A stretch of 57,273 nt of DNA from an archaeon. GTDB taxonomy: Archaea; EX4484-52; GLR71. The notes beneath the pieces were generated by a model, which ran no database searches, had not been told where the DNA came from, and worked only from the letters and a program-made list of their open reading frames with translations. Positions 12,842-26,754 of the stretch are shown here, one piece after another; the first letter of the stretch is position 1, and every line of letters begins with the position of its first letter. The position numbers were made by a program, and so were the translations under genes. The DNA lies in contig WTCA01000015.1 of the NCBI GenBank assembly GCA_013138805.1, positions 1 to 57,273 on the forward strand, read 5' to 3'.

Positions 12842-12859
12842 CATGCTATCTTATAAACA
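12842..12859 (+). promoter_or_regulatory. recurrent promoter motif CATGCTATCTTATAAACA
   Basis: Exact 18-mer 34 nt upstream of the ATG at 12893. Confidence 0.65.
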
Positions 12860-12892
12860 GACCTATGCATATATCTGGTATAGATGATTATC

Positions 12893-13357: not shown

Positions 13358-13418
13358 ATGCATCAAGATTATTGATATATGATCAAAAGATCAGATATAA
13401 AAAAGATAAGTGATTATC

Positions 13419-14192
13419 ATGGCGACTAGATTCATGACCAAAGGCAAGGGTGATGGCAGGAAGGTCATACCTCTCAAAGGCAGGGCATCTGTCAAGGCTC
13501 CTAAGAACATGGTGCCTAAGTACAGCAAGTTACAGAAGGCTATACTGTCCCTGATGGTCGAGGATACCGGTGCTAACCTATTGGATTCAGGCGGTGCATA
13601 CGGCAGGCACTATGAACGTAACCAGCAGGTCAAGGACTGGACAGCTGTTAAGGATCTCAGCTTTGATGAATTTGGATATACACGTAACCTGTTTCCGTTC
13701 TTGGTACAACAGCTGGATATCAATCCTGAAAGCCAGAAGTTGCAGGGACAGTTTGACAGGATGTCTGCCAAGTCTGACGAGCCGTACCTGAGCGACATGG
13801 AACAGTTCTTGGAGAAGCTGGCTAAGGATGGTAGGCTGGAATCAGATGATTACTTGGTCACTGAAAAACCTACTGTGATCAATACTTACAATGCAGAGTC
13901 TGCACTGTCACAGATACTGCAATATGCCCTGTTCATGGTTGACGGTGAATATTATGTCATATTGCAGGTGCACAACGGCTGTGATGCAAGGGGTGGGTAT
14001 ACCAAGCCTAAGATATTTGCAGTGCCTGACCCTGAATCTTTTATAATCCGTCAGAACGATGCCGATGTCACCACAAAGAAAGGTACATATACGACTGATG
14101 ATACATATAATTTCTATCCTGAGTCAGGTATCTCTGGTGAGCCTAAGCAGTGGGAAGACCTGTGGAAAGAGGGTATAGTGAGGATTAATTGA
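13419..14192 (+). CDS. Leader-A family protein
   Basis: Track ORF 13410..14192. The ATG at 13419 gives MATRFMTKGKGDGRKVIPLKG. The body contains LLDSGGAYGRHYERNQ and HNGCDARGGYTKP motifs. Confidence 0.8.
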   Translation: MATRFMTKGKGDGRKVIPLKGRASVKAPKNMVPKYSKLQKAILSLMVEDTGANLLDSGGAYGRHYERNQQVKDWTAVKDLSFDEFGYTRNLFPFLVQQLDINPESQKLQGQFDRMSAKSDEPYLSDMEQFLEKLAKDGRLESDDYLVTEKPTVINTYNAESALSQILQYALFMVDGEYYVILQVHNGCDARGGYTKPKIFAVPDPESFIIRQNDADVTTKKGTYTTDDTYNFYPESGISGEPKQWEDLWKEGIVRIN

Positions 14193-14193
14193 T

Positions 14194-14967
14194 ATGACAG
14201 CAAGCTTTATCACGAGAGGCAGGGGTGCAGGCAGGAAAGTCATACCTATAGGTATAGGTATACGCAAGCCTGTGGTTGTCAGGTATGAAGGGCTGGGAAG
14301 GGTGGCTCCGTCTAAGGCATATCTTACAGATATCGTAAAAGATGATACGGAACTGGAATACCTGAGCGATATCCATGATGATATGCAGTTCATCAATAAG
14401 ATGCGAAACCTTAAGTCAAGAGTGGTCAAGGCTATAGGACAGTCTGAGTATGATAGATGGATCAAGCTGTACAATGACATTGACTCTGGAGCTTTTGACT
14501 TTGATGAGTATGTCAGGCGTAATAAGGTGCACATATCTCTCTGGAGACATATACGTCACATGAGCGATATCGAGAAGTTTGAGGCAGTGCTAAAGCATAA
14601 GAGATATAGTCCTGATATAATAAGTGATTTTACTGCTATGTATCATTACGATTTCGGGTATCATGACTTGGACGGTGTCTCACGGCTTAAGTTTTTTCAT
14701 GTCGCAAAGCTTGTATATCCGGCAGTCAGGAAATATCTTGATACTGATCTGATAGATGAGGAACCTCAATATTATTATATATCAGGCAAGCGTAGAGAAA
14801 TGTTGCATGAAAAGTTCCTAAGAGAATACAATAATAAATATGGAAACAGGGACGGGTACCAGAGAGTTGAACTGGATGCCAGTGTAGGTACCAAAGAAGG
14901 AGAACCTCCAGAAGATGAGTTTGATGCATCTTTATATGCAGGCGCTATAGCTGGAGGAGCTATCTGA
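14194..14967 (+). CDS. Leader-A family protein (body paralogous to 21275..22015 and 24001..24702)
   Basis: MTASFITRGRGAGRKVIPIG. The body aligns with the two other copies (for example DRWIKLYNDIDSGAFDFDEY vs SGWVKLMCDIDDGSFDADSF). Confidence 0.8.
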   Translation: MTASFITRGRGAGRKVIPIGIGIRKPVVVRYEGLGRVAPSKAYLTDIVKDDTELEYLSDIHDDMQFINKMRNLKSRVVKAIGQSEYDRWIKLYNDIDSGAFDFDEYVRRNKVHISLWRHIRHMSDIEKFEAVLKHKRYSPDIISDFTAMYHYDFGYHDLDGVSRLKFFHVAKLVYPAVRKYLDTDLIDEEPQYYYISGKRREMLHEKFLREYNNKYGNRDGYQRVELDASVGTKEGEPPEDEFDASLYAGAIAGGAI

Positions 14968-14986
14968 ATAATATATGTGAGTACCA

Positions 14987-15775
14987 ATGATTAAAAGATT
15001 CATTACAAAAGGAAAAGGCAAGAGCAGGAAAGTCATACCGCTCAACGATGGAGGGGCTGGTGCCAAGGTGCCTGCAAAACGGTCTGTGAAAGCGGAAGAC
15101 TATACGGATTACAAGACGTCTAAAAGATACCTTGAGAACAAGCTGTCTGATGAGGGCGGTGACCTGTTAGGGAACCATTGGTCTATAGGTCGTACCTTTA
15201 CAGGCATCAAGTTAACCTTAGGCAATATGACCACTGCAGGCTGGTATTGGGTGGGTGAGGCTAAAGACATGGCAGGGTTTCTTGTCCGTATCATAGGTTC
15301 TAGGGTGCGCAAAGAGTTCATAGAGACCATGCGCAGGAACAATGTGGATTTCAGGAAAGTCAAGGGTGTTATGCTAAAGTCAATCTCTGAAGGTGACGGT
15401 CTGTACGAGATGACAGGCGATACTTTAAGATGGAAGTTCGGTACCACTATGCCAGAGGTTGATGAAGATACAGACTTTGATGATTTTGCGCAGGACAGAG
15501 ATGTCACGTTGACTGACGAGTTCAAGGATGAGGTCAGGGACAGGTATTATCCAGACATGCCTGACTATGATCATGTCAAGAAAAGATACATGGCAAGGTA
15601 CAAGGAAGAGATGAGAGAGGCAGTCATGGACTCTGGGTCATTTGAGGAGTTTACGGGCAAGGTGGCTGACATCCAGAAATCATTTGACTATGATATCATT
15701 GAAGATCTCAGCGAGACCATGGGTGCAGGGTTCAGGTCTGTGATGTTTGCTGTGGCAAAAGAGAGGAATATGTGA
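14987..15775 (+). CDS. Leader-A family protein
   Basis: MIKRFITKGKGKSRKVIPLND. 262 aa. Confidence 0.8.
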   Translation: MIKRFITKGKGKSRKVIPLNDGGAGAKVPAKRSVKAEDYTDYKTSKRYLENKLSDEGGDLLGNHWSIGRTFTGIKLTLGNMTTAGWYWVGEAKDMAGFLVRIIGSRVRKEFIETMRRNNVDFRKVKGVMLKSISEGDGLYEMTGDTLRWKFGTTMPEVDEDTDFDDFAQDRDVTLTDEFKDEVRDRYYPDMPDYDHVKKRYMARYKEEMREAVMDSGSFEEFTGKVADIQKSFDYDIIEDLSETMGAGFRSVMFAVAKERNM

Positions 15776-15785
15776 TGTGGTATAT

Positions 15786-16301
15786 ATGGTGAAGACAAGA
15801 TTCATTACGAAAGGCAAGGGTGCTGGTAAGAAAGTAATTCCGCTTAGGAGCATGGCTATATCTCAGGGTAAGAAAAATATATTCAGTAAAGATACTACTG
15901 CCAAAGAACTTCGTATATTTGTCAAGAGTAAGGTAGTGACCCAAGGTCGTAAGGCTGGAATGTCATATTCCTCATTTGATAAAGATGAACAGGTAACTCT
16001 TATGTCAATGGGCGTGACACCATTCTCTTATGTTTCAGTGGTCACGGATGACATGTTTCAGGCTAAGTTGCATAGGCTTGTTGACATGTTCTGGTCTGAT
16101 TCACACAGTGCATTCAAGGATGCATATGATATGTATATAGAGAGGCTACCTATATCAGATAACGCTAAGGAATGGTTCAAGGAAGACACTGTCCTGCAGG
16201 GGAATTTTGAAGAAGGTGCAAGAGATACATATGATATTGAGCAGGATATCATAGACCATTTTCCTGAGATGAAGAAAGTGTCTATGCAACTAAAAAAGTG
16301 A
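15786..16301 (+). CDS. Leader-A family protein
   Basis: Track ORF 15747..16301. The ATG at 15786 gives MVKTRFITKGKGAGKKVIPLRS. Confidence 0.8.
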   Translation: MVKTRFITKGKGAGKKVIPLRSMAISQGKKNIFSKDTTAKELRIFVKSKVVTQGRKAGMSYSSFDKDEQVTLMSMGVTPFSYVSVVTDDMFQAKLHRLVDMFWSDSHSAFKDAYDMYIERLPISDNAKEWFKEDTVLQGNFEEGARDTYDIEQDIIDHFPEMKKVSMQLKK

Positions 16302-16313
16302 TATGTGATATAT

Positions 16314-16829
16314 ATGGTGAAGACAAGATTCATGACAAAAGGCAGGGGTGCAGGACGTAAAGTTATACCTATGAAAGACCGACCTATGGCTGGCAAGGTC
16401 AATGTCAAGGTCAAGATAGACCCTAAGATGCAACTGCTAAAAAATATCAGGAAACGTAACGTCATAACTGAGCAGGAGCTTGGTCTGGTGATGGGACGGT
16501 TGAATAGCAAGGCATACGCTGTCGGTCAGGTCACAGAGATGATAGGGGATGAAGGTCTGGAGCTGACACCTGAACAGTCTCGGAAAGGTTACGGTTACCT
16601 GATGAACCAATGGAAAAGCCCTAAGACTGGTATGGAACGCAAGAACAATCCGTTTGGGTACATTGAACAGGAGATACTCAAGGATTTTGATAGGTTCTGC
16701 CTGAAAGATACATTTGATGCAGGCACAATTAATTTCAGTCATCATATCCCTATATATAAAGTATACTCAAAAATCTATGGATCATTTGAGTATCATATGG
16801 CTGGTGGCAAGGTCAATATCATAGGGTGA
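16314..16829 (+). CDS. Leader-A family protein
   Basis: Track ORF 16305..16829. The ATG at 16314 gives MVKTRFMTKGRGAGRKVIPMKD. Confidence 0.8.
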   Translation: MVKTRFMTKGRGAGRKVIPMKDRPMAGKVNVKVKIDPKMQLLKNIRKRNVITEQELGLVMGRLNSKAYAVGQVTEMIGDEGLELTPEQSRKGYGYLMNQWKSPKTGMERKNNPFGYIEQEILKDFDRFCLKDTFDAGTINFSHHIPIYKVYSKIYGSFEYHMAGGKVNIIG

Positions 16830-16834
16830 ATATC

Positions 16835-17242
16835 ATGACTAGATTCATAACGAAAGGCAGGGGTACTGGCAGGAAAGTCATACCTATCAAAGACAGGAAC
16901 AAGGCTGTCAAGTTCAGTATGGATGATGATGAGCTTGAGAGACCGTCTTTCAAGGACAGGTACCTGCGCAGTCTCAGGGACGATGCCAAGACCATGACAA
17001 CATCTGACCTGCAAGGCGTGGTGGGTGCAAAAGTGCACAGTCTGGCTGATGAGCAAGGCATTGTCCTCAAGGTGCCATTGCAGGCAGAGCTGGAAGACAT
17101 AATGCTCCAGTACGCATATGGTGAGATGGACATCAACTCAGCCCAGAGATTCATGACTGATATAATCATGAAAGCGGACAAGATACCTATCCAGTCAGGA
17201 GATGACAGGGCTAATTATGTATCTGAAGATGGATTATTTTAG
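16835..17242 (+). CDS. Leader-A family protein
   Basis: Track ORF 16826..17242. The ATG at 16835 gives MTRFITKGRGTGRKVIPIKD. Confidence 0.8.
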   Translation: MTRFITKGRGTGRKVIPIKDRNKAVKFSMDDDELERPSFKDRYLRSLRDDAKTMTTSDLQGVVGAKVHSLADEQGIVLKVPLQAELEDIMLQYAYGEMDINSAQRFMTDIIMKADKIPIQSGDDRANYVSEDGLF

Positions 17243-17257
17243 GGAGATGACTGTAAT

Positions 17258-17530
17258 ATGATAACTAAATTCATTACGAAAGGAAAAGGTAAGAGCATGA
17301 AATTTATATCTATAAGAGCTATATTGCTTCTGTTTATTATATGTGGGTCTGTTTTATGTACCATAACTCCTTCAGCTTATGCCTCTGTCGATGATACTAA
17401 GGTCATAGGCGAAATTCCTGCAGGGTTTATTTTGGGTCTGACTGAGAATATCACAATACCTATAGTTATACAACTATTTATTGTAGCTTTTGTGGGGTCT
17501 GTATTATTGATACTTATAATGAAGTTATGA
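17258..17530 (+). CDS. hybrid mini-protein: degenerate leader A + signal peptide + GLTEN anchor module
   Basis: MITKFITKGKGKSMKFISIRAILLLFIICGSVLCTITPSAYA / SVDDTKVIGEIPAGFILGLTENITIPIVIQLFIVAFVGSVLLILIMKL. Confidence 0.75.
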   Translation: MITKFITKGKGKSMKFISIRAILLLFIICGSVLCTITPSAYASVDDTKVIGEIPAGFILGLTENITIPIVIQLFIVAFVGSVLLILIMKL

Positions 17531-17547
17531 ATGGATATGAGGATATT

Positions 17548-18297
17548 ATGACGACAAGGTTCATTACTAAGGGCAAAGGGCAGAGCAGGAAATTCATACC
17601 GCTCAATGACAAGGTGGCAAAGCCTAAGCTAAGTGCCAAGACCAGAAGTCTGATGAAGAGTCCGTTGGCTGACACATTCGACATTGACGTGGTCAAGGCA
17701 GTCACTGATGAGGTAGGTGCAGTCAAGTCTGTTGATGATGAGGGCAAGTTCTGGACGGTCACGACTGAGGACGGCAAGGAATACATGCTGTTTGAGGATA
17801 AAGACTTAGCCAAAGACTTTGCGGTGGAGAGAGTGGCAGATGACCTGAGCGACCAGCCTGAGCTGTTCACCCGTGACTGGCTGATGTCTCATGTTAATGA
17901 GGACGGGTTGCGAGACAGTCTAAGGGCTGATGAAGAGAACATGAATAGGGATTATGTCAATGAGATTGAGGATGAGGAAGATGCTGAGCATGGGACTAGA
18001 CTGAAAGCTGAGCTTATAGAGAGAGGTATCATAAGTGAGGATGCTGATGTCACAGACGAAGTCAAGGAAGATATGGTCGGTCAGATGACGGATGAACGTC
18101 TTGAAGACCCGATGGCTTATCTTGATGAGCTAGGGTATGAGGGTGAGAGACTCATGGATATCCTGACACCTCACATAGACCTTGATGAGGCTTCTGAGGA
18201 TGCAGTAGATACTGATGGTATGGCTCATTTCCTTGCCACCTATGACGGCGAGCAGGTGGACACTGCGACTGAGCATGTACTGTTCAGACAGAATTAG
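17548..18297 (+). CDS. Leader-A family protein (acidic body paralogous to leaderless 22536..23072)
   Basis: Track ORF 17527..18297. The ATG at 17548 gives MTTRFITKGKGQSRKFIPLND. Confidence 0.8.
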   Translation: MTTRFITKGKGQSRKFIPLNDKVAKPKLSAKTRSLMKSPLADTFDIDVVKAVTDEVGAVKSVDDEGKFWTVTTEDGKEYMLFEDKDLAKDFAVERVADDLSDQPELFTRDWLMSHVNEDGLRDSLRADEENMNRDYVNEIEDEEDAEHGTRLKAELIERGIISEDADVTDEVKEDMVGQMTDERLEDPMAYLDELGYEGERLMDILTPHIDLDEASEDAVDTDGMAHFLATYDGEQVDTATEHVLFRQN

Positions 18298-18310
18298 GAT
18301 TTGATTATGT

Positions 18311-18727
18311 ATGACGACGACAAGATTCATGACTAAGGGACGAGGAGCATCACGCAAGGTGATACCTCTTAAGTACGGTACTGCCGTCCAGAGATATAAG
18401 AGACAGAAAGCTGTGGTCTCAGGAGACATAGAACATCTCAAGACCAATAAGGCTAAGCTCATCTCTGAGCTGGGCACTGCAAAGACACATATGATGGATG
18501 TCATGAAAGATACAGGGCATACCCTCAGACTGCTTAGGCTGGATGCTGTGCAGTTGCGGGATACCAATAAGATGGTAGTCATAGCAAAAGTTCAGAAAGG
18601 CAATGATGTGTACCATCACGTCATCGATGACGTTGTCCTGAAAGAGAAGATGCTTGCAGACGATTTTCATAGGCTCATAGAATCCATAAAGTCTAAGTAC
18701 CATAAGACCATAGAGATCTGGAGATGA
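18311..18727 (+). CDS. Leader-A family protein
   Basis: MTTTRFMTKGRGASRKVIPLKY. 138 aa. Confidence 0.8.
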   Translation: MTTTRFMTKGRGASRKVIPLKYGTAVQRYKRQKAVVSGDIEHLKTNKAKLISELGTAKTHMMDVMKDTGHTLRLLRLDAVQLRDTNKMVVIAKVQKGNDVYHHVIDDVVLKEKMLADDFHRLIESIKSKYHKTIEIWR

Positions 18728-18732
18728 TTTGA

Positions 18733-19479
18733 ATGACGAGATTCATAACAGTCACGGGTAAGGCTGGCAGACGGGCAGTGCCGATAGACGGCAAGAAGAG
18801 TTCGGTATGTCCAATCAATATAGTGCCTTCAGGGATGCGTAATCTCAAGAGTGCGGTGACCAAATATCATGAGGGCAGGCTCAATGAAGCACTCAAGAAG
18901 ATAGAGACTGCCGACGGTCTCAAGAATGAGATGGGGTATGAGGGCAAGAAATATGCCGGTGACGATGATGCTGTAAGGGTTAAATTTACCAGATACCTGC
19001 AGACTGCACATGATAAGAAGATAGCTGAAGACATGGATAGGATCAAAGCTGTTGAGGGTGCAGAGGATTTCAAGGATGAGCTTGTCGTGACTGTCGAATG
19101 GAAGAAGAGCAGGATGTGGGGCAATAACCCGACAGCGCATACCAGTGACGGTGACCGGTCTGAAAGCATAGGCGGTTGCGGGTATGATAAGGAGAGCACG
19201 GCGATAGCGCAGGTGCTGAACCAAAACATGCCACTGCTGAAATTGATGTATAGCAGGAAAGACAAGGATCACAGCAGATGGAAAGATTTTGATGATCATA
19301 GTGATTATAACCGCAAGGTGCTGGGCTATGGGTCAGGGTACGGTATACTGCCACAGTTCGAGGGCGGTGTAGGTGTGTCATCGCATCAGAACATAATGAA
19401 GAACATAGGTCTGGAGATGCAACATCTGGTGACTACTGACCGGTCAGATACATATGTGATCAAGAAAGCTGGGAAGTGA
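18733..19479 (+). CDS. Leader-A family protein (degenerate leader)
   Basis: MTRFITVTGKAGRRAVPIDG. The body contains GGCGYDKESTAIAQVLNQ and GYGSGYGILPQFEGGVG motifs. Confidence 0.75.
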   Translation: MTRFITVTGKAGRRAVPIDGKKSSVCPINIVPSGMRNLKSAVTKYHEGRLNEALKKIETADGLKNEMGYEGKKYAGDDDAVRVKFTRYLQTAHDKKIAEDMDRIKAVEGAEDFKDELVVTVEWKKSRMWGNNPTAHTSDGDRSESIGGCGYDKESTAIAQVLNQNMPLLKLMYSRKDKDHSRWKDFDDHSDYNRKVLGYGSGYGILPQFEGGVGVSSHQNIMKNIGLEMQHLVTTDRSDTYVIKKAGK

Positions 19480-19484
19480 TATCT

Positions 19485-19700
19485 ATGGTACGAAAATTCA
19501 GGTCGGATGCACAGCGTAAGGCTGTCATGAGCAAGGTGAAAGATAATATGAATACTGGCTCTAAGAATATAAGTGCTATAACTATAGTGCATGATAAGGT
19601 GATAATGCCTATTAGTGCTGTTGAAGAGCGTGAACGCCTCATAGCTGATGGTTATAAGGTCTTAGAGACTAAGGGCAATGTGGTATATTTATATAAGTGA
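19485..19700 (+). CDS. Leader-B family protein
   Basis: Track ORF 19476..19700. The ATG at 19485 gives MVRKFRSDAQRKAVMSKV. GTGATATCT precedes the ATG, as at 19706. Confidence 0.8.
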   Translation: MVRKFRSDAQRKAVMSKVKDNMNTGSKNISAITIVHDKVIMPISAVEERERLIADGYKVLETKGNVVYLYK

Positions 19701-19705
19701 TATCT

Positions 19706-20125
19706 ATGGTAAGAAAATTCAGGTCGGATGCACAGCGCAAGGCTGTGATGAGCAAGGTCAAGGGCAGGACGGTGACGTTCAGGGTACCTGCCAAGAAGAT
19801 CCCTGAGCATTCTGAACCTATAGATGTTGGCAGGCTGACTTTCGATAAGATGAAGACCATGTCCAGAAAGGCTGGTCTGCACTGGTTCGATAAGGATTCC
19901 ATGAGCTTCTTCAATTCCAAGTTGCATGGGACTGTATTCGTATCTCCCGCCAAGAATGTGTATTTCATATCTTCTGAGACCTTTGAGGAGGACAATCCTG
20001 ACTATCCACGAAAGTATACCATCAGGCAGTTCAATCCCAGAGACGGTTCAGTCAGTGAAGTGGGCGGGTTTCAGGCATATGATACTTTCGGTGATGCAAC
20101 TAAAGATATGGTAAGGTTAGATTGA
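19706..20125 (+). CDS. Leader-B family protein
   Basis: Track ORF 19697..20125. The ATG at 19706 gives MVRKFRSDAQRKAVMSKV. Confidence 0.8.
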   Translation: MVRKFRSDAQRKAVMSKVKGRTVTFRVPAKKIPEHSEPIDVGRLTFDKMKTMSRKAGLHWFDKDSMSFFNSKLHGTVFVSPAKNVYFISSETFEEDNPDYPRKYTIRQFNPRDGSVSEVGGFQAYDTFGDATKDMVRLD

Positions 20126-20126
20126 T

Positions 20127-20579
20127 ATGGTACGAAGATTCATAACTAAAGGCAAGGGCAAGGGCAGGAAAGTCATACCTATATCTGGCAGAGCAACAGA
20201 GGTACCTGTAAAGGTCAAGCCAGACATATTGTCTAAGCCGTTCACTGAAGATATAACTTTATCAGGCAATGACTTCTTTATCGAGTATGATCCTAAGCAT
20301 AAAGGACTGTACCTGACTGAGAGGACAGACTACGTGTCTGGAGAAGATGATGAAGAAGAGATGGATGATTCATCTTATCCATATGAGACTTTTGACTTTG
20401 AACTGGTCAAGGACTCTAAGGTACTGGATAGGTTGATCAGGTCAGAGCTGGAATCGATAGTATCATCCACTGTTGTCGTGGACGGTCAGATACTGCGTGT
20501 GGACTGGTATCCTGAAGGTGAGGTGCTGGTCTTGGTATCTCTGCCTGACAACACAAAATATATATTCAAGGAAGTATAA
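20127..20579 (+). CDS. Leader-A family protein
   Basis: MVRRFITKGKGKGRKVIPISG. Note the MVRRF start, which is shared with leader B. Confidence 0.8.
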   Translation: MVRRFITKGKGKGRKVIPISGRATEVPVKVKPDILSKPFTEDITLSGNDFFIEYDPKHKGLYLTERTDYVSGEDDEEEMDDSSYPYETFDFELVKDSKVLDRLIRSELESIVSSTVVVDGQILRVDWYPEGEVLVLVSLPDNTKYIFKEV

Positions 20580-20598
20580 TAAAAGATAGGTGACCTCT

Positions 20599-21258
20599 AT
20601 GGTACGAAGATTCAAGTCGGATGCACAGCGCAAGGCTGTCATGAGCAAGATAAATGATAGAGGTAGCCCTACCATCAAGTACAGGACACCTAAGAGACAT
20701 CTGGATCTGGATGTCCGTGCGTATGAACTGGGCAACCTGAGAGTGTCCAAGGGCGGTAACTTTGAGAGGTTTCTGGATAATCTGATACGGTATTATAGGT
20801 CTGACAGCAAAGGTTCTGCTGTGCTGAGACTGAACCCATCCCAACGTGAATACATAGATATGAACCTTGATTCCTATGAGCTGGGCAATCTTGAGATATC
20901 TGAGGGCGGTAACTTCAAGAACTGGTTACAGAACCTGATACAGTTTTATATGCGTGACACAGGTCAGGATAAGGAGTACATGAAAGATGTCAAGGAACAG
21001 AGGGTCAGGGTAGAACGTCGCAGGAAGGTTGAGAGAGACATAAGACCTATGCTGGACAGGTTCAAGGAGATGACCGCATCTGCACTAGACCCTGAGCATG
21101 TCAGCGGTGGCGGTCTGACAGTGACTAAGGATGGAGAACTCATAAGCATGTTGCATTACAAAGGAACCCTTATGGAGAAAGAAGCACTGGCGGTGCTGAG
21201 ACCTGCACTGGAGAAGAAGGGGCTGAAGGTCTATGAGGAAGACCTGTGGTATCCATGA
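20599..21258 (+). CDS. Leader-B family protein with internal ~45-aa duplication
   Basis: Track ORF 20590..21258. The ATG at 20599 gives MVRRFKSDAQRKAVMSKI. YELGNLRVSKGGNFERFLDNLIRYY and YELGNLEISEGGNFKNWLQNLIQFY are duplicated. Confidence 0.8.
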   Translation: MVRRFKSDAQRKAVMSKINDRGSPTIKYRTPKRHLDLDVRAYELGNLRVSKGGNFERFLDNLIRYYRSDSKGSAVLRLNPSQREYIDMNLDSYELGNLEISEGGNFKNWLQNLIQFYMRDTGQDKEYMKDVKEQRVRVERRRKVERDIRPMLDRFKEMTASALDPEHVSGGGLTVTKDGELISMLHYKGTLMEKEALAVLRPALEKKGLKVYEEDLWYP

Positions 21259-21274
21259 TATATGATGTTAATAT

Positions 21275-22015
21275 ATGATGAAGGATATGGTTAAGATGAC
21301 AGGTACAAGATTTATCACGAAAGGCAGAGGGACGGGTAGGAAAGTCATACCTATGACCAGCAAGTCCAGATCTAAGGTTCCTGCACTGGACATGTCAGAT
21401 AGGTTCTATTCAATGCCTCAGTATATATTGCACATGACCCTTGATGAAGATGAACGTATATATCTACAGAAACTGCATGAGAATTATCAGCTCCTCAATC
21501 ATCTCAGGTTGGCTAAGAGAGATCTGATAGGTCATATAGGAGATGATACATATTCTGGCTGGGTCAAGCTGATGTGTGACATAGATGACGGCTCCTTTGA
21601 TGCAGATAGTTTCCTTAAGTCCAAAGGTGCATATAGATATCATCTCTTCACAGTATCTGTCGATCATAAGTTCAGGGCTGTGCTCAGGGCACAGGGTGTA
21701 GGGGACAGGTTCATAGATGATTTCCTGTATATCTATGGACGGCATTATAAGTTTGTGGGCATAGATGGACTCAGCTATGATATCAAGTTTCCTCTAGCGC
21801 ATTACGGTGACATGATAATGACATCTATGAAACCTGCATTCAATAAGTATATTGGGATGAGTTCTATATTTTATTTTAGGGATGATGATGATTTTAAAAG
21901 ATATACTGTATTCATTGACTTATCTTTTAAGGACAGATGGAAATCTTTATCTTCAATGATGGATAAAAAGTATCATGAAGCATATAAGGATAAGAAAGGA
22001 TATCTTAAGGTATGA
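21275..22015 (+). CDS. Leader-A family protein (body paralog of 14194 and 24001 genes)
   Basis: MMKDMVKMTGTRFITKGRGTGRKVIPMTS. The start could also be 21287 or 21296. Ends KYHEAYKDKKGYLKV. Confidence 0.8.
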   Translation: MMKDMVKMTGTRFITKGRGTGRKVIPMTSKSRSKVPALDMSDRFYSMPQYILHMTLDEDERIYLQKLHENYQLLNHLRLAKRDLIGHIGDDTYSGWVKLMCDIDDGSFDADSFLKSKGAYRYHLFTVSVDHKFRAVLRAQGVGDRFIDDFLYIYGRHYKFVGIDGLSYDIKFPLAHYGDMIMTSMKPAFNKYIGMSSIFYFRDDDDFKRYTVFIDLSFKDRWKSLSSMMDKKYHEAYKDKKGYLKV

Positions 22016-22038
22016 GCATCAAAGATAGGTGATTTGAT

Positions 22039-22503
22039 ATGAAATTCGTAAACGACAGACAGCGAAAGGCTGTCATGAGCCGGCTGAGGACGTACAGGGT
22101 TCAGGTACCTGTGTATAACGAGATCGAGGTCTTGGTGAAGGCGCCGGAGGGCGATCTTGGCAAGATAATGGATAAGGCGGTCAAGCAGGCTGAGATAGAT
22201 GAGCCTAAGACACCTTGGATGTATGACGAGGACAGTGCGGACGCATCTGAATGGGATATTGTAAAGATGGAAGATAGAGATGACAATGACAGACCTGTCA
22301 GTAAAGCATATTCTGTCAAAGGACTCAAGAAAGAGTATGCTGAAGATATTGCGAAGGTAGAAGCCCGCAAGGATGTCAGCACCTCTGAGAAAGAAGATAT
22401 AAAGAAGCGACTGAAACTTCTGCTGGATACGAATATCAAGATTGTCTCAAGAGATACAGGAGATACGAAGACCAGATTGGTCTCAACAGAGGTACCGAGA
22501 TAG
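22039..22503 (+). CDS. Leader-B family protein (short leader variant)
   Basis: MKFVNDRQRKAVMSRL. SD is TAGGTGA. Confidence 0.8.
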   Translation: MKFVNDRQRKAVMSRLRTYRVQVPVYNEIEVLVKAPEGDLGKIMDKAVKQAEIDEPKTPWMYDEDSADASEWDIVKMEDRDDNDRPVSKAYSVKGLKKEYAEDIAKVEARKDVSTSEKEDIKKRLKLLLDTNIKIVSRDTGDTKTRLVSTEVPR

Positions 22504-22535
22504 AGACAGGATCGAATAATCAAAGATGATGTTAC

Positions 22536-23072
22536 ATGACAGGTCAGATAGGTGACTGGTTCAGTCTAGATGTAGTCAGGGCAGTCACCGAGGTGACAGG
22601 CAAGATAAGGTCTGTTGACCGTGAAGACTATGAGGAAGATAGAGAGGGGCAAGAAAGAGAAAATAAGAGGGTATGCTGGCGGATCATCACTGATGACGGC
22701 TGTGAATACATGATGTTTGAAGACATCAGGTCTGCAGAGAGGTTCACAGTATGTCATGTCAGGGAAGAGATCAGGACTGAGCCTGAGATGTTCGACCATG
22801 ACTGGCTCATCACTTTCATTGACCTGCAAGGTATCTGTGATGATCACAGGGCTGATATGGCAGACGCTGACATAGGCGGTGACCCTGTCCAGCAACTTAA
22901 TGATGCAGGGTACTACGGCGAGAACCTGACCGATATGCTAGGATCTCGGCTTGATCTTGACAGGGCATCACAGGACATGGTTGATAAGGTAGGCTACAGG
23001 CATTTCCTGACAGGCGATGTGGACAGCATCGAGGTCACTGTCAGGACAGGGCATGTAATATTGAAGGTGTAG
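22536..23072 (+). CDS. leaderless paralog of the 17548..18297 body
   Basis: SLDVVRAVTEVTGKIRSVD...CEYMMFEDIRSAERF...PEMFDHDWL aligns with DIDVVKAVTDEVGAVKSVD...KEYMLFEDKDLAKDF...PELFTRDWL. Confidence 0.75.
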   Translation: MTGQIGDWFSLDVVRAVTEVTGKIRSVDREDYEEDREGQERENKRVCWRIITDDGCEYMMFEDIRSAERFTVCHVREEIRTEPEMFDHDWLITFIDLQGICDDHRADMADADIGGDPVQQLNDAGYYGENLTDMLGSRLDLDRASQDMVDKVGYRHFLTGDVDSIEVTVRTGHVILKV

Positions 23073-23077
23073 ATGAT

Positions 23078-23611
23078 ATGGTATTTAAGAACGATAGGCA
23101 GAGAAAGGCTGTCATGTGCAAGATAGGTCTTAAGCATGGCGGTAAGCTGGACAGCATGTTTGACCGGATACAGCTGGACAAGGGTACCAAGATAGAGATG
23201 GAACACACGGATGACAGGGCTGTGGCTGGGGCGATAGCCAAGGCGCACCTGATCGAGAACCCTAAATATTACCTGTACCTTGAGATGATGGAAGCGCAGA
23301 TGAAAGGCGATGCTAGGCTTGATGCCAAGATAGGCAAGGGCGACACGGTAAGGTTCCTTGACCTGTACGGACAGCTGAAGGAAGGCAAGGTCACAGGGTT
23401 CAGGACAGCCGATGACACTGACAGGACATCTGTGGTAGACATAAGGTCTGACGGCATACTGTACGGTGCGCCGAGAGAGAAGGTCATGAAGACAGGCAAT
23501 CCTCTAGGAAGCTATAAGGACTTTTCATCCTGTGTCAGTGCCAATCTGGACAAGAGAGACCCGAAAGCGTACTGCGGTGCGATCAGGCATAAGGTAGAAG
23601 GAAGGCGTTGA
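23078..23611 (+). CDS. Leader-B family protein (short leader variant)
   Basis: MVFKNDRQRKAVMCKI. The body has an EMEHTDDRAVAGAIAKAHLIENPKYYLYLEMME motif of the kind seen in some phage hypothetical proteins (recollection only). Confidence 0.8.
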   Translation: MVFKNDRQRKAVMCKIGLKHGGKLDSMFDRIQLDKGTKIEMEHTDDRAVAGAIAKAHLIENPKYYLYLEMMEAQMKGDARLDAKIGKGDTVRFLDLYGQLKEGKVTGFRTADDTDRTSVVDIRSDGILYGAPREKVMKTGNPLGSYKDFSSCVSANLDKRDPKAYCGAIRHKVEGRR

Positions 23612-23613
23612 CC

Positions 23614-23994
23614 ATGGCATTCAAGAATGACAGGCAGAGGAAGAAGGTCATGATGACATTGAAGTCAGGCATCAAGCCTGTGAATAGTTTTAAGGCATAT
23701 TCACCTGAACAGCTCAGGTCTAAGGCTGTCAGTGTATACATGACAGACAAGGTAGGCAGTAGTGTCATAGATGCATATCTTCAAGATAATCTTGACTTGG
23801 TCAACCATAAGGACTATGAGCTTATAACCAACCAGACCCTGTCAGGAAAACCTGTCAATGTTCTGGTCGTACTGACACAGAAAGCAGGGTATCGCATAGC
23901 TGACAGCAGGATATCTTCACAGTCTAAGATATGGGATATGAATATTACGACCATCAAAGACCTGACAGATTCAGGTTATGGATTATGGAAATGA
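23614..23994 (+). CDS. Leader-B family protein (short leader variant)
   Basis: Track ORF 23608..23994. The ATG at 23614 gives MAFKNDRQRKKVMMTL. Confidence 0.75.
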   Translation: MAFKNDRQRKKVMMTLKSGIKPVNSFKAYSPEQLRSKAVSVYMTDKVGSSVIDAYLQDNLDLVNHKDYELITNQTLSGKPVNVLVVLTQKAGYRIADSRISSQSKIWDMNITTIKDLTDSGYGLWK

Positions 23995-24000
23995 TACAGC

Positions 24001-24702
24001 ATGACGACAAGGTTCATGACCAAGGGCAAAGGACAGAGCAGGAAAATCATACCTATGAAAGGTAGGCAGGAGCCAAAGCCTAAAGGTATACGTCGTGATG
24101 TATCTGAACAGTTTTATGATATCCCTAAATATATACGGGATATTACTCTTTATGAGAATGAACGAGGTTATCTTATGGCTCTGCATAAGGATAGGCAACT
24201 GCTCAATCATCTCAGGAACATACAGGCTGGGTTGATATCCAATATAGGTGCAGTTGAGTATCATAGGCTTGTCGGTCTGTATGTTGACGTGCAACTGTCT
24301 GTCTTTGACATAGGTAAATATATGCGATCAAAAGGTATACCTGCCCTTATGTATTGGTTGCTTTCAACCTCAGATAAGTTTAAGATGATGCTCAGGACAA
24401 AAGGATTGTCTGATAAAGATATATCTGATTTTATGTATCTTCATGGCAATGATTATAAGTTTACAGGTATTGACGGCAATCAATATAAGCTCAGATCTTC
24501 AATCTTCTCTAGAGATACCATTACAGAAGACATGCAACCGTCTTTTGATAGATATCTTAATATGAGAACAACATTTCCTATAGGTGTCACAAAGAGAGGT
24601 AGATATGTGAAAGATGATAAGAGGATAGACCAGCTTAAGACCCTCTCTGATAAGATCTATCATAAGGCTTATAAGGACAAGAGAGGATACCTTAAGGATT
24701 GA
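24001..24702 (+). CDS. Leader-A family protein (body paralog of 14194 and 21275 genes)
   Basis: MTTRFMTKGKGQSRKIIPMKG. Ends KIYHKAYKDKRGYLKD. Confidence 0.8.
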   Translation: MTTRFMTKGKGQSRKIIPMKGRQEPKPKGIRRDVSEQFYDIPKYIRDITLYENERGYLMALHKDRQLLNHLRNIQAGLISNIGAVEYHRLVGLYVDVQLSVFDIGKYMRSKGIPALMYWLLSTSDKFKMMLRTKGLSDKDISDFMYLHGNDYKFTGIDGNQYKLRSSIFSRDTITEDMQPSFDRYLNMRTTFPIGVTKRGRYVKDDKRIDQLKTLSDKIYHKAYKDKRGYLKD

Positions 24703-24709
24703 TGATATT

Positions 24710-24985
24710 ATGACGACAAGGTTCATGACAAAGAACAAGAGACGGATACCCATCACCGACAGGTCTGCATCGCTCAAGCTCAGGGTACCCGCCCTGCCGT
24801 CATCAGGCACTGTCAAGAAGACCGTCAAGGTCAGCAAGGCTTTCGCCGGCGACAATGATTTCTGGCTGGTTCAGGAAGTGCATACTGCGGGCAAGGATGT
24901 CATAGCAGTCCCTGAATCCCAGATAGTCAAGGGGAAAGATAAGGCGGAAGCTTTGAAGAGACTGTATGAGAAACATCTGGGCTGA
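24710..24985 (+). CDS. Leader-A family protein (leader with internal deletion)
   Basis: MTTRFMTKNKRRIPITD. 91 aa. Confidence 0.7.
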   Translation: MTTRFMTKNKRRIPITDRSASLKLRVPALPSSGTVKKTVKVSKAFAGDNDFWLVQEVHTAGKDVIAVPESQIVKGKDKAEALKRLYEKHLG

Positions 24986-24996
24986 GAAGAAGTGTT

Positions 24997-25014
24997 CATG
25001 CTATCTTATATAGA
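24997..25014 (+). promoter_or_regulatory. recurrent promoter motif variant CATGCTATCTTATATAGA
   Basis: Ends 20 nt upstream of the ATG at 25035. Confidence 0.6.
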
Positions 25015-25034
25015 GAGAAAAGAAATGATTGTGT

Positions 25035-25325
25035 ATGGTACAGAAGTTCAGGTCGGATGCACAGCGCAAGACTGTGATGGCTAAGTTGGTCAGGAAAGAT
25101 AAGGTCATAAGACCTAAATCACCCGTATACAGACCATCATCTGCAGTGGCGTATATGGATACTAAGGATGGTAAGATAAAAGGTGTTGTAAAATACAATG
25201 ATTTCTATGAAAGATATAATTTGTTCATTGATGGGTCTCATTATGGTCAGTTCAAGAATTTTAATGATGGTGTTGATGAACTGAAAAGGTCGGGGTTCAA
25301 GAAGATAACGATAAGGGTACCGTGA
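25035..25325 (+). CDS. Leader-B family protein
   Basis: Track ORF 25029..25325 (TTG). The ATG at 25035 gives MVQKFRSDAQRKTVMAKL. Confidence 0.8.
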   Translation: MVQKFRSDAQRKTVMAKLVRKDKVIRPKSPVYRPSSAVAYMDTKDGKIKGVVKYNDFYERYNLFIDGSHYGQFKNFNDGVDELKRSGFKKITIRVP

Positions 25326-25330
25326 TTATC

Positions 25331-25657
25331 ATGACGACAGGATTCATAACGAAAGGAAAAGGTGCAGGCAGGAAAGTCATACCTATGTTTGACTTTCGCA
25401 AGGGCAAGGTCAAGCAGACAGTGGCAAGATCCAAGAAAGTCAAGATCAAGCCAGAGCCATGGGCTGTCATAATCGGTGAAGAGGTGAATGTCTTTGGCAG
25501 TCGCAAGGAAGCCATGGATTCTCTGGCTGACTATTCAGACACAGGTTATGTGTCTCTGGGCAAGAGACAGAAAGACGGGTCTTATGCTGTAAAGGTGCCA
25601 AGTCAGTACGGTGACGATGGGACTGCTACATTGATACTGACACCTTATGAGGAATGA
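25331..25657 (+). CDS. Leader-A family protein
   Basis: Track ORF 25322..25657. The ATG at 25331 gives MTTGFITKGKGAGRKVIPMFD. Confidence 0.8.
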   Translation: MTTGFITKGKGAGRKVIPMFDFRKGKVKQTVARSKKVKIKPEPWAVIIGEEVNVFGSRKEAMDSLADYSDTGYVSLGKRQKDGSYAVKVPSQYGDDGTATLILTPYEE

Positions 25658-25676
25658 TCTAAGAGCTGTGATTGTG

Positions 25677-25946
25677 ATGACAAGATTCAAGAGTGACAGG
25701 CAACGGAAGGCTGTGATGAGCAGGCTGTCAAGGGCTGGCATTGCAACAGGAATACATGATGATAAACCTGTTGAGTTCTCTATCGATCTGGTGCAGGCTG
25801 AGTTCATGAATGACGATACTGACATCAGCAACGTATGGGACTGGAAGAGCGGACAGAACCTGACAAGGATCATGGACGGTAGCCAGTGGGTCATAGCCAA
25901 TGTGGACAGGTACCCTGAAAGCAGTATACAGCTGATAAAGAAATGA
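25677..25946 (+). CDS. Leader-B family protein (A/B chimeric start MTRFKSD)
   Basis: Track ORF 25647..25946. The ATG at 25677 gives MTRFKSDRQRKAVMSRL. Confidence 0.75.
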   Translation: MTRFKSDRQRKAVMSRLSRAGIATGIHDDKPVEFSIDLVQAEFMNDDTDISNVWDWKSGQNLTRIMDGSQWVIANVDRYPESSIQLIKK

Positions 25947-25960
25947 TGATAGTGATATGC

Positions 25961-26449
25961 ATGACGACAGGATTCATAACGAAAGGCAGGGGTGCAGGCA
26001 GGAAGGTCATACCTATCAAGGACAGGCATACTGTCGCAGAGCCGAAAGTGACCAAGGACAAGAGCTACAATAAGGTGCTGTGGCAGGATATAGTCACCAA
26101 GGGCAGGAAGAGAGAGCCAACCGCACTGACTGGCGGTATGAACCATCTGGACGATTCTGAGATCACTACGATAGTCGCCACCATGGAGTTCTTCGATGCC
26201 ACCGACATCTGGATGAAGCAGACCGTGTTTGATCTGGGAGGCTTGCCTAGGTTCAGGGTGTTTGACTGGCTAGCCATGAATGTCATGGGCAGGAACGATG
26301 ATGACAGGCGACAGAATGAGCAGGCTCTGAAAGTGCTGGTTCATGCATGGACAAAGGCTGATGGAGATGTCAAGGGCTTCATCAGGAACCTGCGTGAAGA
26401 CGACTATGATGTTGACCGTAGCTGGGAAAAGATACAGATCGATATATGA
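25961..26449 (+). CDS. Leader-A family protein
   Basis: Track ORF 25943..26449. The ATG at 25961 gives MTTGFITKGRGAGRKVIPIKD. Confidence 0.8.
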   Translation: MTTGFITKGRGAGRKVIPIKDRHTVAEPKVTKDKSYNKVLWQDIVTKGRKREPTALTGGMNHLDDSEITTIVATMEFFDATDIWMKQTVFDLGGLPRFRVFDWLAMNVMGRNDDDRRQNEQALKVLVHAWTKADGDVKGFIRNLREDDYDVDRSWEKIQIDI

Positions 26450-26463
26450 TTCAAGTGATATGA

Positions 26464-26754
26464 ATGACAAGGTTCAAGAGTGATAGGCAGAGAAAGGCTG
26501 TCATGTCCAAGGTCAAGAACGGGCAGGGTCTGGTGTCAGCCGTCAGGAAGGCTGTCGGTCTGGAGATGTCTGCTGATGAGCGCAAGAGACTGATCAAGGC
26601 GTATGAGCGTGAGATAGAGGCTGACAAGAGGTTGATCAAGGCAGGCAAGGACTTGCCATCCACATTATTGGGCGAGGCGCTGACAGTCACTGGAAAGATC
26701 AGGCTCAGGAATGACCAGAAATTCTTGGACAGGTTGAGGAAGAAAAGAAAGTGA
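26464..26754 (+). CDS. Leader-B family protein (A/B chimeric start MTRFKSD)
   Basis: MTRFKSDRQRKAVMSKV. 96 aa with a basic tail. Confidence 0.8.
   Translation: MTRFKSDRQRKAVMSKVKNGQGLVSAVRKAVGLEMSADERKRLIKAYEREIEADKRLIKAGKDLPSTLLGEALTVTGKIRLRNDQKFLDRLRKKRK

What the first reader, a model, noticed from the sequence alone, without database searches (positions are those of the whole stretch)
20127..26754. Leader-A and leader-B genes interleave as A-then-B neighbours, and A/B chimeric leaders exist
Seen in sequence:
- Adjacent A-then-B junctions with gaps of 5-49 nt occur at 10617/10626, 19479/19485, 20579/20599, 22015/22039, 24985/25035, 25657/25677 and 26449/26464. A further junction at 23072/23078 follows the leaderless gene.
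- Leaders at 25677 and 26464 start MTRFKSDRQRKAVM, which is an A-type MTRF start fused to a B core.
- The leader at 20127 starts MVRRF (B-type) and continues ITKGKGKGRKVIP (A-type).

Inference: the two leaders share an M-x-x-R-F stem and recombine there. The A-then-B pairing could reflect two-gene cassettes such as effector plus partner. However, the pairing is not strict in the 12.9-19.5 kb run, which is all A.
Basis: partly seen in the sequence, partly recalled or inferred. Interest (0 to 1): 0.6.

Follow-up and report, generated by a model that had tools for sequence, protein, structure and literature searches.

The report
Swappable protein tags, not gene pairs
In this uncultivated archaeal virus-like element the alternating "A then B" genes are not two-gene units: they are single genes that each carry one of two interchangeable N-terminal peptide tags, and their order is no different from chance.

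Summary
The A-then-B pattern is not more than chance. In the 33-gene array there are 7 A->B junctions against 7.6 expected, and the longest alternating stretch (6) turns up in 34% of shuffles. Over seven related elements like tags cluster (27 A->B junctions against 36.7 expected).

None of the four testable A->B pairs stays adjacent in relatives. Three of the B "partners" have no homologue in them. One "pair" is split by a promoter. A->B gaps are not tighter than other gaps.

Tag exchange is real. At least 8 of about 35 body families carry A in one element and B in another. The few residues between Met and the invariant Phe are shared by both tags and are homogenised between neighbouring genes.

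Tag B is widespread: 363 protein clusters, including tandem B-only arrays. So A/B co-dependence is excluded, and "MTRF + B core" need not be a chimera.

The tags are under peptide-level selection (pN/pS about 0.25, pS about 0.6) and are modelled as flexible. Their function is unknown; I favour an address label like T4's capsid-targeting sequence.

The scan noted this array before on the same DNA (e1-3691857, e1-3691858) and similar tag arrays on other DNA.

The parts
8434..26754 (+). Whole array: 21 tag-A genes, 12 tag-B genes and 3 untagged genes. Order: BAAAABB--AAAAAAAAAAABBABAB-BBAABABAB
20127..20579 (+). Tag-A gene with a B-like stem (MVRRF + ITKGKGKGRKVIP). Its orthologues start MAKRF or MKRF.
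   Evidence: In relatives it is followed by other A genes, not by the 20599 family.
20599..21258 (+). Tag-B gene. The same body carries tag A in L032:11381 and L040:10879.
21296..22015 (+). Tag-A gene, paralogue of 14194 and 24001.
   Evidence: In L032 and L035 the orthologue lies after the 22039 family, not before it.
22039..22503 (+). Tag-B gene. Always followed by the untagged 22536 family wherever both are present.
22536..23072 (+). Untagged paralogue of the tag-A gene 17548. It is untagged in all three elements that have it.
23078..23611 (+). Tag-B gene with a DUF5661 body.
23614..23994 (+). Tag-B gene. Its body has no homologue in the related elements.
24001..24702 (+). Tag-A gene (family of 14194 and 21296).
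24710..24985 (+). Gene with a shortened A tag (FMTKNKRRIPI). The same short form is kept in orthologues L032:15685 and L033:12081.
24998..25014 (+). Archaeal-type promoter motif ATGCTATCTTATATAGA inside the 49-nt gap. It separates 24710 and 25035 into different transcription units.
25035..25325 (+). Tag-B gene, first gene of the last transcription unit of the array.
25331..25657 (+). Tag-A gene. Its orthologue L033:14751 (56-62% identical body) carries tag B.
25677..25946 (+). Tag-B gene with an MTR stem. Its body has no homologue in relatives.
25961..26449 (+). Tag-A gene. In L033 its orthologue (14249) is followed by the 25331 orthologue, not by the 26464 family.
26464..26754 (+). Tag-B gene with an MTR stem. 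Orthologues start MVRQF (L032) and MAF (L033). It is the conserved last tagged gene of the array.
10048..10976 (+). A->B junction outside the finding region. The 10048 body carries tag B in L033:1167. The 10626 body is unique to the window.
18733..19700 (+). A->B junction outside the finding region. 18733 is conserved in five relatives, but the 19485 body is unique to the window.
12843..12859 (+). Promoter motif heading the 22-gene unit 12893-24985. Further copies lie at 8384, 9998 and 26765.

Best explanation
The A-then-B neighbours are not two-gene cassettes.

The block 8.4-26.8 kb is a hypervariable array of single-gene units in an uncultivated archaeal virus-like element. Four archaeal-type promoters head its transcription units, and a fifth lies just beyond its last tagged gene.

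Each unit begins with one of two short, basic N-terminal peptide tags:
- A: [RK]-F-[IM]-T-K-G-[RK]-G-x-G-R-K-V-I-P
- B: F-[KR]-S-D-[AR]-Q-R-K-A-V-M

Shown:
- The tags are kept by selection on the peptide.
- In the two structure models made they are modelled with low confidence, apart from the folded body.
- They can be absent in paralogues.
- They are interchangeable: one and the same body carries A in one element and B in another.
- A mixed order of two tags gives A->B junctions at the chance rate in this window. Over the family they are fewer than chance, because like tags cluster.
- The 'chimeric' leaders reflect a third, separately evolving piece: the 1-4 residues between Met and the invariant Phe, plus the ribosome-binding region just upstream. 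Both tags share it, and it is homogenised between neighbouring genes.

Inferred: that homogenisation happens by short-tract exchange.

Inferred, about 35%: the tags are alternative address labels. They would dock a fast-changing set of small, mostly basic proteins to one conserved partner, most likely for incorporation into the particle or travel with the transferred DNA, as the capsid-targeting sequence does for phage T4 internal proteins.
For: Order:
- 7 A->B junctions against 7.64 expected.
- Longest alternation 6, P=0.34.
- Pooled over seven elements: 27 against 36.7, P(<=obs)=0.001; 63 runs against 80.4.

Synteny:
- 0 of 4 testable A->B junctions are kept in relatives. By contrast 3 of 3 B->untagged and 2 of 7 A->A junctions are kept.
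- The bodies of 10626, 19485 and 25677 have no homologue in relatives.

Operons: a promoter motif lies inside the 24985/25035 gap.

Spacing: the A->B median gap is 14-19 nt, against 5-12 nt for the other junction types.

Interchange:
- The body families of 9569, 10048, 18311, 19706 (DUF7447), 20599 and 25331, and two more families in relatives, carry A and B in different elements.
- A leaderless paralogue is conserved in three elements.

Selection: in the tag cores pS is 0.58-0.69 and pN is 0.16-0.19.

Flexibility:
- AlphaFold pLDDT is below 50 for tag-A residues 1-26.
- It is about 48 for the tag-B helix 8-17.

Stem:
- Identical stems in neighbours occur 17 times against 6.2 expected, P<5e-5.
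- Extra identity between neighbours is confined to about -30..+15 around the Phe codon.

Independence of B from A:
- 363 representative proteins carry tag B, nearly all of the 150 listed at residues 1-30.
- Tandem B-only arrays occur in L038, L039, L053, L054, L057 and L059.
- Tag A was found only in this element family.

Address-label reading:
- Tag-B bodies are small and very basic (median 129 aa, pI 9.9), as T4 internal proteins are (PMC9026906).
- In L038 the B genes sit in one operon with giant FG-GAP/Laminin-G proteins.
- The element encodes an ArdC-N + zincin-peptidase protein. ArdC is described as travelling with invading DNA (PMC5512222, PMC6222260).
Against: - The elements compared are relatives of one another, so the pooled P values overstate independence.
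- No protein-protein prediction could be run, so physical interaction of neighbours is untested.
- No capsid, portal, prohead protease or packaging ATPase was recognised in the window. A particle into which the tag could sort is therefore not shown.
- No tag-binding partner is identified, and no cleavage site is defined.
Confidence: 0.8

Rival explanations
1. A-then-B neighbours are two-gene cassettes (effector plus partner, toxin plus neutraliser) that move and work together.
For: - In 20127-26754, five of six A genes are directly followed by a B gene.
- Several pairs combine an acidic and a basic body: 20127 pI 4.2 with 20599 pI 9.1; 25961 pI 5.2 with 26464 pI 10.5.
Against: - The frequency is at chance, and below chance over the family.
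- 0 of 4 testable pairs are kept in relatives.
- Three of the partners are unique to the window.
- The same body switches between A and B.
- A promoter splits one pair.
- Spacing is not tighter.
- B-only arrays exist.
- Paralogues 14194, 21296 and 24001 have unrelated downstream neighbours.
Confidence: 0.03
2. The three flagged leaders (20127, 25677, 26464) are not recombinants. The Met-to-Phe stem simply drifts by point mutation and small indels, and it looks alike in both tags because of a common translation-start context.
For: - Stems differ between orthologues that keep the same core and body: 20127 MVRR against MAKR and MKR; 26464 MTR against MVRQ and MA.
- Stem divergence of 20127 from its L032 orthologue (3/15 nt) is no greater than core divergence (12/39).
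- MRF, MTF and MVRRF stems on B cores also occur outside the fetched family loci, and MRF/MTF occur in B-only contigs.
- Cross-type neighbour identity is 1 against 0.6 expected.
Against: - The stem of 20127 is identical over 15 nt to B genes 10626 and 20599, and 19/24 nt identical to 10626.
- Neighbours share stems far above chance.
- A clean core swap behind a shared stem exists in the DUF7447 family.
- Long stems on B cores are about 10-fold enriched where A tags co-occur.
Confidence: 0.3
3. The leaders are conserved mainly as DNA: a recombination handle for cassette capture, in the manner of integron attC sites. The peptide would be incidental.
For: - Genes are gained, lost and reordered between elements at leader boundaries.
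- The array is co-oriented and mostly promoterless behind a few promoters.
Against: - Synonymous sites in the cores are near saturation (pS 0.58-0.69) while amino acids are kept (pN 0.16-0.19).
- Third-position identity of neighbouring cores equals that of distant cores (0.49 against 0.49).
- Mean core DNA identity is only about 0.68-0.77.
- Tag B is held at the peptide level over 363 protein clusters.
Confidence: 0.08
4. If true two-gene modules exist in the array, they are 'B-tagged gene followed by an untagged gene' (10982+11335, 22039+22536, 26464+26802). The tagged protein might carry the untagged one.
For: - These are the only junction class kept in every relative that has both bodies (3 of 3, in 2-5 relatives each).
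- 22536 is an untagged paralogue of the tagged 17548.
Against: - There are only three cases.
- They may simply be the conserved backbone of the array.
- 26802 has its own promoter motif.
- No interaction test was possible.
Confidence: 0.2
5. The tags are not sorting labels. They might be a nucleic-acid-binding arm, a propeptide removed by the element's ArdC-like zincin peptidase, or a timing or degradation signal.
For: - The tags are Lys/Arg-rich and modelled with low confidence.
- The bodies are mostly basic.
- An ArdC-N + MPTase gene is present in the window and in L035.
Against: - There is no direct evidence for any of these.
- Near-invariant non-basic positions (Phe, Thr and Pro in A; Gln, Val and Met in B) argue for a specific protein partner rather than plain charge.
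Confidence: 0.25

Closest known systems
Capsid-targeting sequence (CTS) of phage T4 internal proteins IPI, IPII, IPIII and Alt, and the variable internal-protein loci of T4-like phages (PMC9026906; Mullaney & Black 1996, as cited there)
   Same: - A short N-terminal peptide is shared by otherwise unrelated, mostly small basic proteins.
- The peptide is detachable from the fold.
- The cargo set varies between related elements.
   Different: - Here there are two unrelated tags, and orthologues swap them.
- There are about 33 tagged genes in one array rather than a handful.
- The setting is an archaeal element with no recognisable capsid, scaffold or prohead protease.
- Packaging and cleavage are untested.
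Polyvalent proteins of phages and conjugative elements, with ArdC-N and MPTase domains (Iyer et al. 2017, PMC5512222)
   Same: - A diverse, fast-changing set of conflict modules.
- An ArdC-N + zincin peptidase gene is present in this element.
- The idea of delivery together with the invading DNA.
   Different: There the modules are fused into one giant polypeptide. Here they are separate small genes, each with its own tag.
Toxin-antitoxin, effector-immunity and polymorphic-toxin cassettes (conserved N-terminal trafficking part, variable toxin, adjacent immunity gene)
   Same: Tight tandem small genes, a conserved N-terminus and variable bodies.
   Different: - There is no conserved pairing.
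- Partners are not kept in relatives.
- The same body switches tag.
- There is no translational coupling specific to A->B.
- No toxin or antitoxin domain was found.
Integron gene cassettes
   Same: A co-oriented, largely promoterless array behind a few promoters, with gain, loss and reordering of single-gene units.
   Different: - The repeated element is translated and conserved as a peptide, with synonymous sites nearly saturated.
- It lies at the 5' end of each gene.
- No integrase was recognised.

Membership tests
Two-gene cassette (toxin-antitoxin or effector-partner) | The two genes stay adjacent, in the same order, in related elements | tested here: not met
   0 of 4 testable A->B junctions are kept. 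Three further partners have no homologue in relatives.
Two-gene cassette (toxin-antitoxin or effector-partner) | Non-random 1:1 alternation of the two classes | tested here: not met
   7 against 7.64 expected. Longest alternation P=0.34. Pooled over elements, fewer than chance.
Two-gene cassette (toxin-antitoxin or effector-partner) | Co-transcription and tight or overlapping coupling specific to the pair | tested here: not met
   The A->B median gap (14-19 nt) is the largest of the four junction types. A promoter lies inside one pair.
Two-gene cassette (toxin-antitoxin or effector-partner) | Physical interaction or neutralisation between the two products | not testable with these tools
   No multimer prediction is available and no experiment was possible.
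T4-type capsid-targeting sequence / internal proteins | A short N-terminal peptide shared by unrelated proteins and separable from the fold | tested here: met
   Leaderless paralogues.
T4-type capsid-targeting sequence / internal proteins | Cargo set variable between related viruses | tested here: met
T4-type capsid-targeting sequence / internal proteins | Element encodes a capsid with a scaffold core and a prohead protease that removes the tag | tested here: inconclusive
   No capsid, portal or protease family was hit among the roughly 30 larger ORFs outside the array scanned with Pfam and PHROGs, or the two sent to PDB sequence search. Archaeal virion proteins often escape such searches.
T4-type capsid-targeting sequence / internal proteins | Tagged proteins are found inside particles | not testable with these tools
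   Needs particle proteomics.
Integron-like cassette array | Repeat conserved as DNA or structure and acted on by a site-specific recombinase | tested here: not met
   pS 0.58-0.69 against pN 0.16-0.19. No integrase was seen among the ORFs scanned.
Any curated family covering the tags (Pfam, incl. DUF3008; PHROGs) | A profile match over the tag residues | tested here: not met
   No family at E<=10 covers tag B residues 1-20. Nothing was found for A or B proteins except body domains DUF5661 and DUF7447.

The most novel reading that the evidence does not exclude
Tags A and B are two interchangeable address labels that load a hypervariable arsenal of more than 30 small proteins into the particle of an archaeal virus-like element, or onto its transferred DNA. 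Tag B (M-x-F-K-S-D-R-Q-R-K-A-V-M-A-K-L) would then be a widespread, undescribed sorting signal of uncultivated viruses, present on at least 363 protein clusters. On this reading the tags themselves evolve by short-tract exchange at the Met-Phe stem, so genes can be re-addressed without touching the protein body.
Probability: 0.3. Interest if true: 0.8.

Novelty: new variant of a known kind. Interest (0 to 1): 0.45.

Why it matters
The specific claim, A+B gene pairs, turns out to be ordinary chance and can be dropped.

What remains matters for how viruses of poorly known archaea organise accessory proteins.
- Two unrelated 15-20-residue tags serve as exchangeable front ends on dozens of unrelated proteins.
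- One of the two tags recurs on hundreds of protein clusters in elements that IMG/VR does not hold.
- If the tags are sorting signals, they give a sequence-only way to list the delivered or virion-associated proteome of uncultivated viruses.
- They would also be a ready-made handle for loading foreign proteins.
- The local homogenisation of the start region shows a fine-scale exchange process acting on only about 45 nt.

Tried and rejected
- **ArdA-like DNA mimic for the acidic 17548/22536 family.** The AlphaFold model is fair (pLDDT 77), but Foldseek against PDB gave nothing (best E 0.42). PDB sequence hits were at chance level.
- **DUF7447 body.** Model pLDDT 77, no PDB fold match (best E 0.14).
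- **Tags A and B as diverged homologues.** hhalign found no similarity (P 0.94).
- **Tag B as DUF3008 or another Pfam family.** No match at E<=10.
- **Tag-A DNA pattern.** 0 hits in IMG/VR, GTDB genome contigs, JGI metagenomes and 42 genomes of the same order.
- **Tag-B DNA pattern.** 0 hits in IMG/VR and 1 in genome contigs.
- **Literature string search for the tag sequences.** Nothing found.
- **Radical-SAM partner** (lead from e1-120421). A B12/radical-SAM gene flanks the arrays of L032 and L033. No radical-SAM family was hit among the window ORFs scanned, so it is not a general partner.
- **Neighbour cores more alike than distant cores** (recent tandem duplication). Not seen for A (0.695 against 0.679) and weak for B.
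- **Terminal repeats or circular closure of the contig.** None found.

Full report
**Setting.** The window is the whole 57,273-bp contig C37 (GC 0.444) of a 1.33-Mb, 103-contig archaeal bin. The bin has ribosomal protein L21e and an archaeal 16S fragment. The contig carries mobile-element genes:
- an ArdC-N + zincin peptidase gene;
- a Dam-type methylase and a YopX-like gene;
- a GNAT gene and a STAND-type NTPase;
- large Ig-like/PKD surface proteins.

No capsid, portal or terminase family was recognised. A strong archaeal-type promoter motif (ATGCTAYCTTATAWA) occurs 13 times against 3.1 expected.

**Checking the observation.** From 8434 to 26754, all on the + strand, I count 21 genes with leader A, 12 with leader B and 3 without a leader.
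- Leader A consensus: [RK]-F-[IM]-T-K-G-[RK]-G-x-G-R-K-V-I-P.
- Leader B consensus: F-[KR]-S-D-[AR]-Q-R-K-A-V-M.
- Order: BAAAABB--AAAAAAAAAAABBABAB-BBAABABAB.
- The DNA just before the Phe codon of 20127 resembles B genes most (19/24 nt with 10626). That of 25677 and 26464 resembles A genes most. Within this window the 'wrong-type' starts are therefore real.

**Is the A-then-B order more than chance?** No.
- With 21 A and 12 B genes, 7.64 A->B junctions are expected and 7 are seen (P>=obs 0.80). There are 15 runs against 16.3 expected.
- The longest alternating stretch (6) appears in 34% of shuffles. The 11-A run is the less likely feature (P=0.024).
- A->B and B->A counts can never differ by more than one, so the reading frame of the 'pairs' is arbitrary.
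- In the last transcription unit (B25035, A25331, B25677, A25961, B26464) the tightest junction is B->A (5 nt).
- A->B gaps (median 19 nt in the window, 14 nt over all elements) are the widest of the four junction types, not the tightest.
- The 49-nt gap 24985/25035 contains a full promoter motif (24998-25014). That 'pair' therefore lies in two transcription units.

**Related elements.** A profile of the A proteins found relatives only on a handful of metagenomic contigs. I fetched L032 (97 kb), L033 (23.6 kb), L034/L035 (38 and 57 kb), L036, L037 and L040 (71 kb). Contig C9 of the same bin also carries B,B,B,A,A,A.
- Their tag orders show runs rather than alternation, for example BBBAAAAAAAABBB..., AABBBAAABBBAAABAA and BBBBAAAAAAABB.
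- Pooled over seven elements there are 27 A->B junctions against 36.7 expected (P<=0.001), and 63 runs against 80.4. The result holds without the window.
- The elements are relatives, so these P values are optimistic. Even so, all seven lie at or below expectation.

**Synteny of the pairs.** I clustered leader-trimmed bodies and ran tblastn of the window's bodies against the relatives.
- Of the seven A->B junctions, three have a B partner with no homologue in any relative (10626, 19485, 25677).
- The other four are never adjacent in the same order:

| Window pair | What relatives show |
|---|---|
| 20127 / 20599 | One or two other A genes lie between them. In L032 and L040 the 20599 body carries tag A. 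|
| 21296 / 22039 | In L032 and L035 the 21296 family lies after 22039. |
| 24710 / 25035 | Separated by another B gene (L032). |
| 25961 / 26464 | In L033, three genes lie between them, among them the 25331 orthologue, which there carries tag B. |

- By contrast, all three B->untagged junctions are kept in every relative holding both bodies (10982->11335, 22039->22536, 26464->26802). Two of seven A->A junctions are also kept.
- Paralogues 14194, 21296 and 24001 have unrelated downstream neighbours.

**Tag interchange.** Orthologous bodies (37-62% identical) carry A in one element and B in another in at least eight of about 35 multi-member families. These are the families of 9569, 10048, 18311, 19706 (DUF7447), 20599 and 25331, plus two families seen only in relatives.
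- DUF7447 bodies outside this element family carry tag B. The A-tagged versions are therefore the derived state.
- The cleanest event is window 19706 against L033:12662. The ribosome-binding region and stem are shared (ATGGTAAGAAA[A/G]TTC = MVRKF), the body is shared from '..VTFRVPAK', and only the core between them is replaced.
- Tags can also be absent. 22536 and its orthologues are conserved leaderless paralogues of A-tagged 17548.
- A division of labour 'A = effector, B = partner' is hard to reconcile with this.

**The stem.**
- Over about 120 leaders, the residues between Met and the invariant Phe come from one overlapping pool: MATR, MVRK, MTR, MK, MAGK and others occur on both cores.
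- Stems change between orthologues that keep core and body. 20127 has MVRR against MAKR and MKR. 26464 has MTR against MVRQ and MA.
- Neighbouring genes share identical stems 17 times against 6.2 expected in within-type shuffles (P<5e-5).
- The excess DNA identity of neighbours peaks in the 15 nt before the Phe codon (0.63 against 0.52, P=1e-4). It is gone 15 nt into the core. The cores of neighbours are no more alike than those of distant genes.
- Among the B-tagged proteins retrieved by the two tag-B searches, 'M-x-F' is the rule (139 of 167 outside the fetched family loci). Long stems are about 10-fold enriched in the loci where A tags co-occur (21 long against 14 short there, 21 against 139 outside; Fisher P=3e-8).
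- Together this supports short-tract exchange around the start codon and stem, including between tag types.
Cross-type neighbour identity is 1 against 0.6 expected. MRF, MTF and MVRRF stems on B cores also occur outside the fetched family loci, and MRF/MTF occur in B-only contigs.

**What the tags are.**
- In the cores, synonymous sites are nearly saturated (pS 0.58-0.69) while amino acids are held (pN 0.16-0.19; pN/pS 0.23-0.29). Selection therefore acts on the peptide and not on a DNA handle.
- Profile comparison shows no relationship between the A and B cores.
- In AlphaFold models the A tag (residues 1-26 of 17548) has pLDDT below 50. The B tag of 19706 is a low-confidence detached helix.
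- Tag A was found only in this element family.
- Tag B is widespread. A 34-position profile finds 363 representative proteins (50% clusters) at E<=1e-3 among 1.84 billion. Nearly all of the 150 listed match at residues 1-30.
- Of the 221 tag-B hits held from the two searches, the 207 with a clear core have a median length of 129 aa and a median body pI of 9.9.
- Tag B occurs in tandem B-only arrays on other contigs: L038, L039, L053, L054, L057 and L059. In L038 these genes share an operon with giant FG-GAP/Laminin-G proteins near a Zot-like ATPase.
- No Pfam, PHROG or literature record covers either tag.

**Mechanism.**
- Shown: these are single-gene units with interchangeable, peptide-selected, flexibly modelled tags. 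A/B order is at chance locally and clustered over the family. Exchange is centred on the start and stem.
- Inferred (about 35%): the tags are alternative address labels for one conserved partner. They would most likely bring small basic proteins into the particle or along with the DNA, like the T4 capsid-targeting sequence (PMC9026906). This fits the presence of an ArdC-type protein, described as transmitted with invading DNA (PMC5512222, PMC6222260).
- Against this: no capsid or protease was recognised and no partner is identified.
- Alternatives remain open: a nucleic-acid-binding arm, a propeptide for the ArdC-like peptidase, or a timing signal.

**Relation to earlier notes of this scan.** My results agree with the latter on swapping. 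They differ on emphasis, because the DNA of the cores is too diverged to be the main recombination handle. Similar shared-tag arrays were noted on other DNA (e1-2847532, e1-2046662, e1-3281549).

**Verdict.** The sequence facts are right. The cassette reading is refuted. The recombination reading is supported in general, but not proven for the three named leaders. The finding adds detail to an already noted, still unexplained tag system.

Noticed in passing
window 10982-11988, 22039-23072, 26464-27044: The only junction class kept in every relative that has both bodies is 'B-tagged gene followed by an untagged gene' (3 of 3). These may be backbone genes of the array or true two-gene modules.
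   Followed up: partly
window 1-59 and contig C9 761-819 of the same bin: The two stretches share 59 bp at 100% identity, including a promoter-like motif (window 36-52). After it C37 continues with a tag-A gene (73) and C9 with a tag-B gene (845). This looks like an assembly-graph fork between two variants of the element at the start of a variable block.
   Followed up: partly
window 24710-24985; L032:15685; L033:12081: A shortened A tag (F-[IM]-T-K-N-K-[RK]-[RK]-I-P-I, lacking the G-x-G-x-G part) is stably kept in orthologues of three elements. It amounts to a third tag form.
   Followed up: partly
L032 19987-20585; L033 16593-17559: In two relatives the array is followed on the minus strand by a cytidylate-kinase-like gene and a B12-binding radical-SAM gene. 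The window has other genes there (YopX-like, Dam methylase).
   Followed up: partly
L038 (NCBI GCA_004196255.1, SDBU01001083.1) 4152-10417: Seven tandem tag-B genes and no tag A. They are interleaved with and followed by giant FG-GAP/Laminin-G proteins (794, 1287 and 336 aa). A Zot-like ATPase lies nearby on the other strand.
   Followed up: partly
proteins P0045, P0055, P0072, P0052; P0099, P0114, P0118: Several tag-B proteins from other elements end in a common C-terminal motif (..KKEEPGFFGI, ..GISFFGIR) after a long coiled-coil-like Lys/Glu/Arg stretch. Others end in a hydrophobic anchor. This hints at sub-families with a second shared end module.
   Followed up: no
all elements: Tag-B proteins are shorter and more basic than tag-A proteins (median 113 against 162 aa; body pI 9.3 against 7.3). 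Part of the pI difference may come from where I cut the tag.
   Followed up: partly
IMG/VR and GTDB collections: Neither tag's DNA pattern occurs in IMG/VR. Only one GTDB representative genome contig (a Planctomycetota bin) has the tag-B pattern. These elements seem to escape current virus catalogues.
   Followed up: partly
L032:5992, L033:3375: B cores reading F-I-S-D-A-Q-R-K (Ile at +1, as in tag A) sit on a body that carries a full A tag in L040:17596.
   Followed up: no
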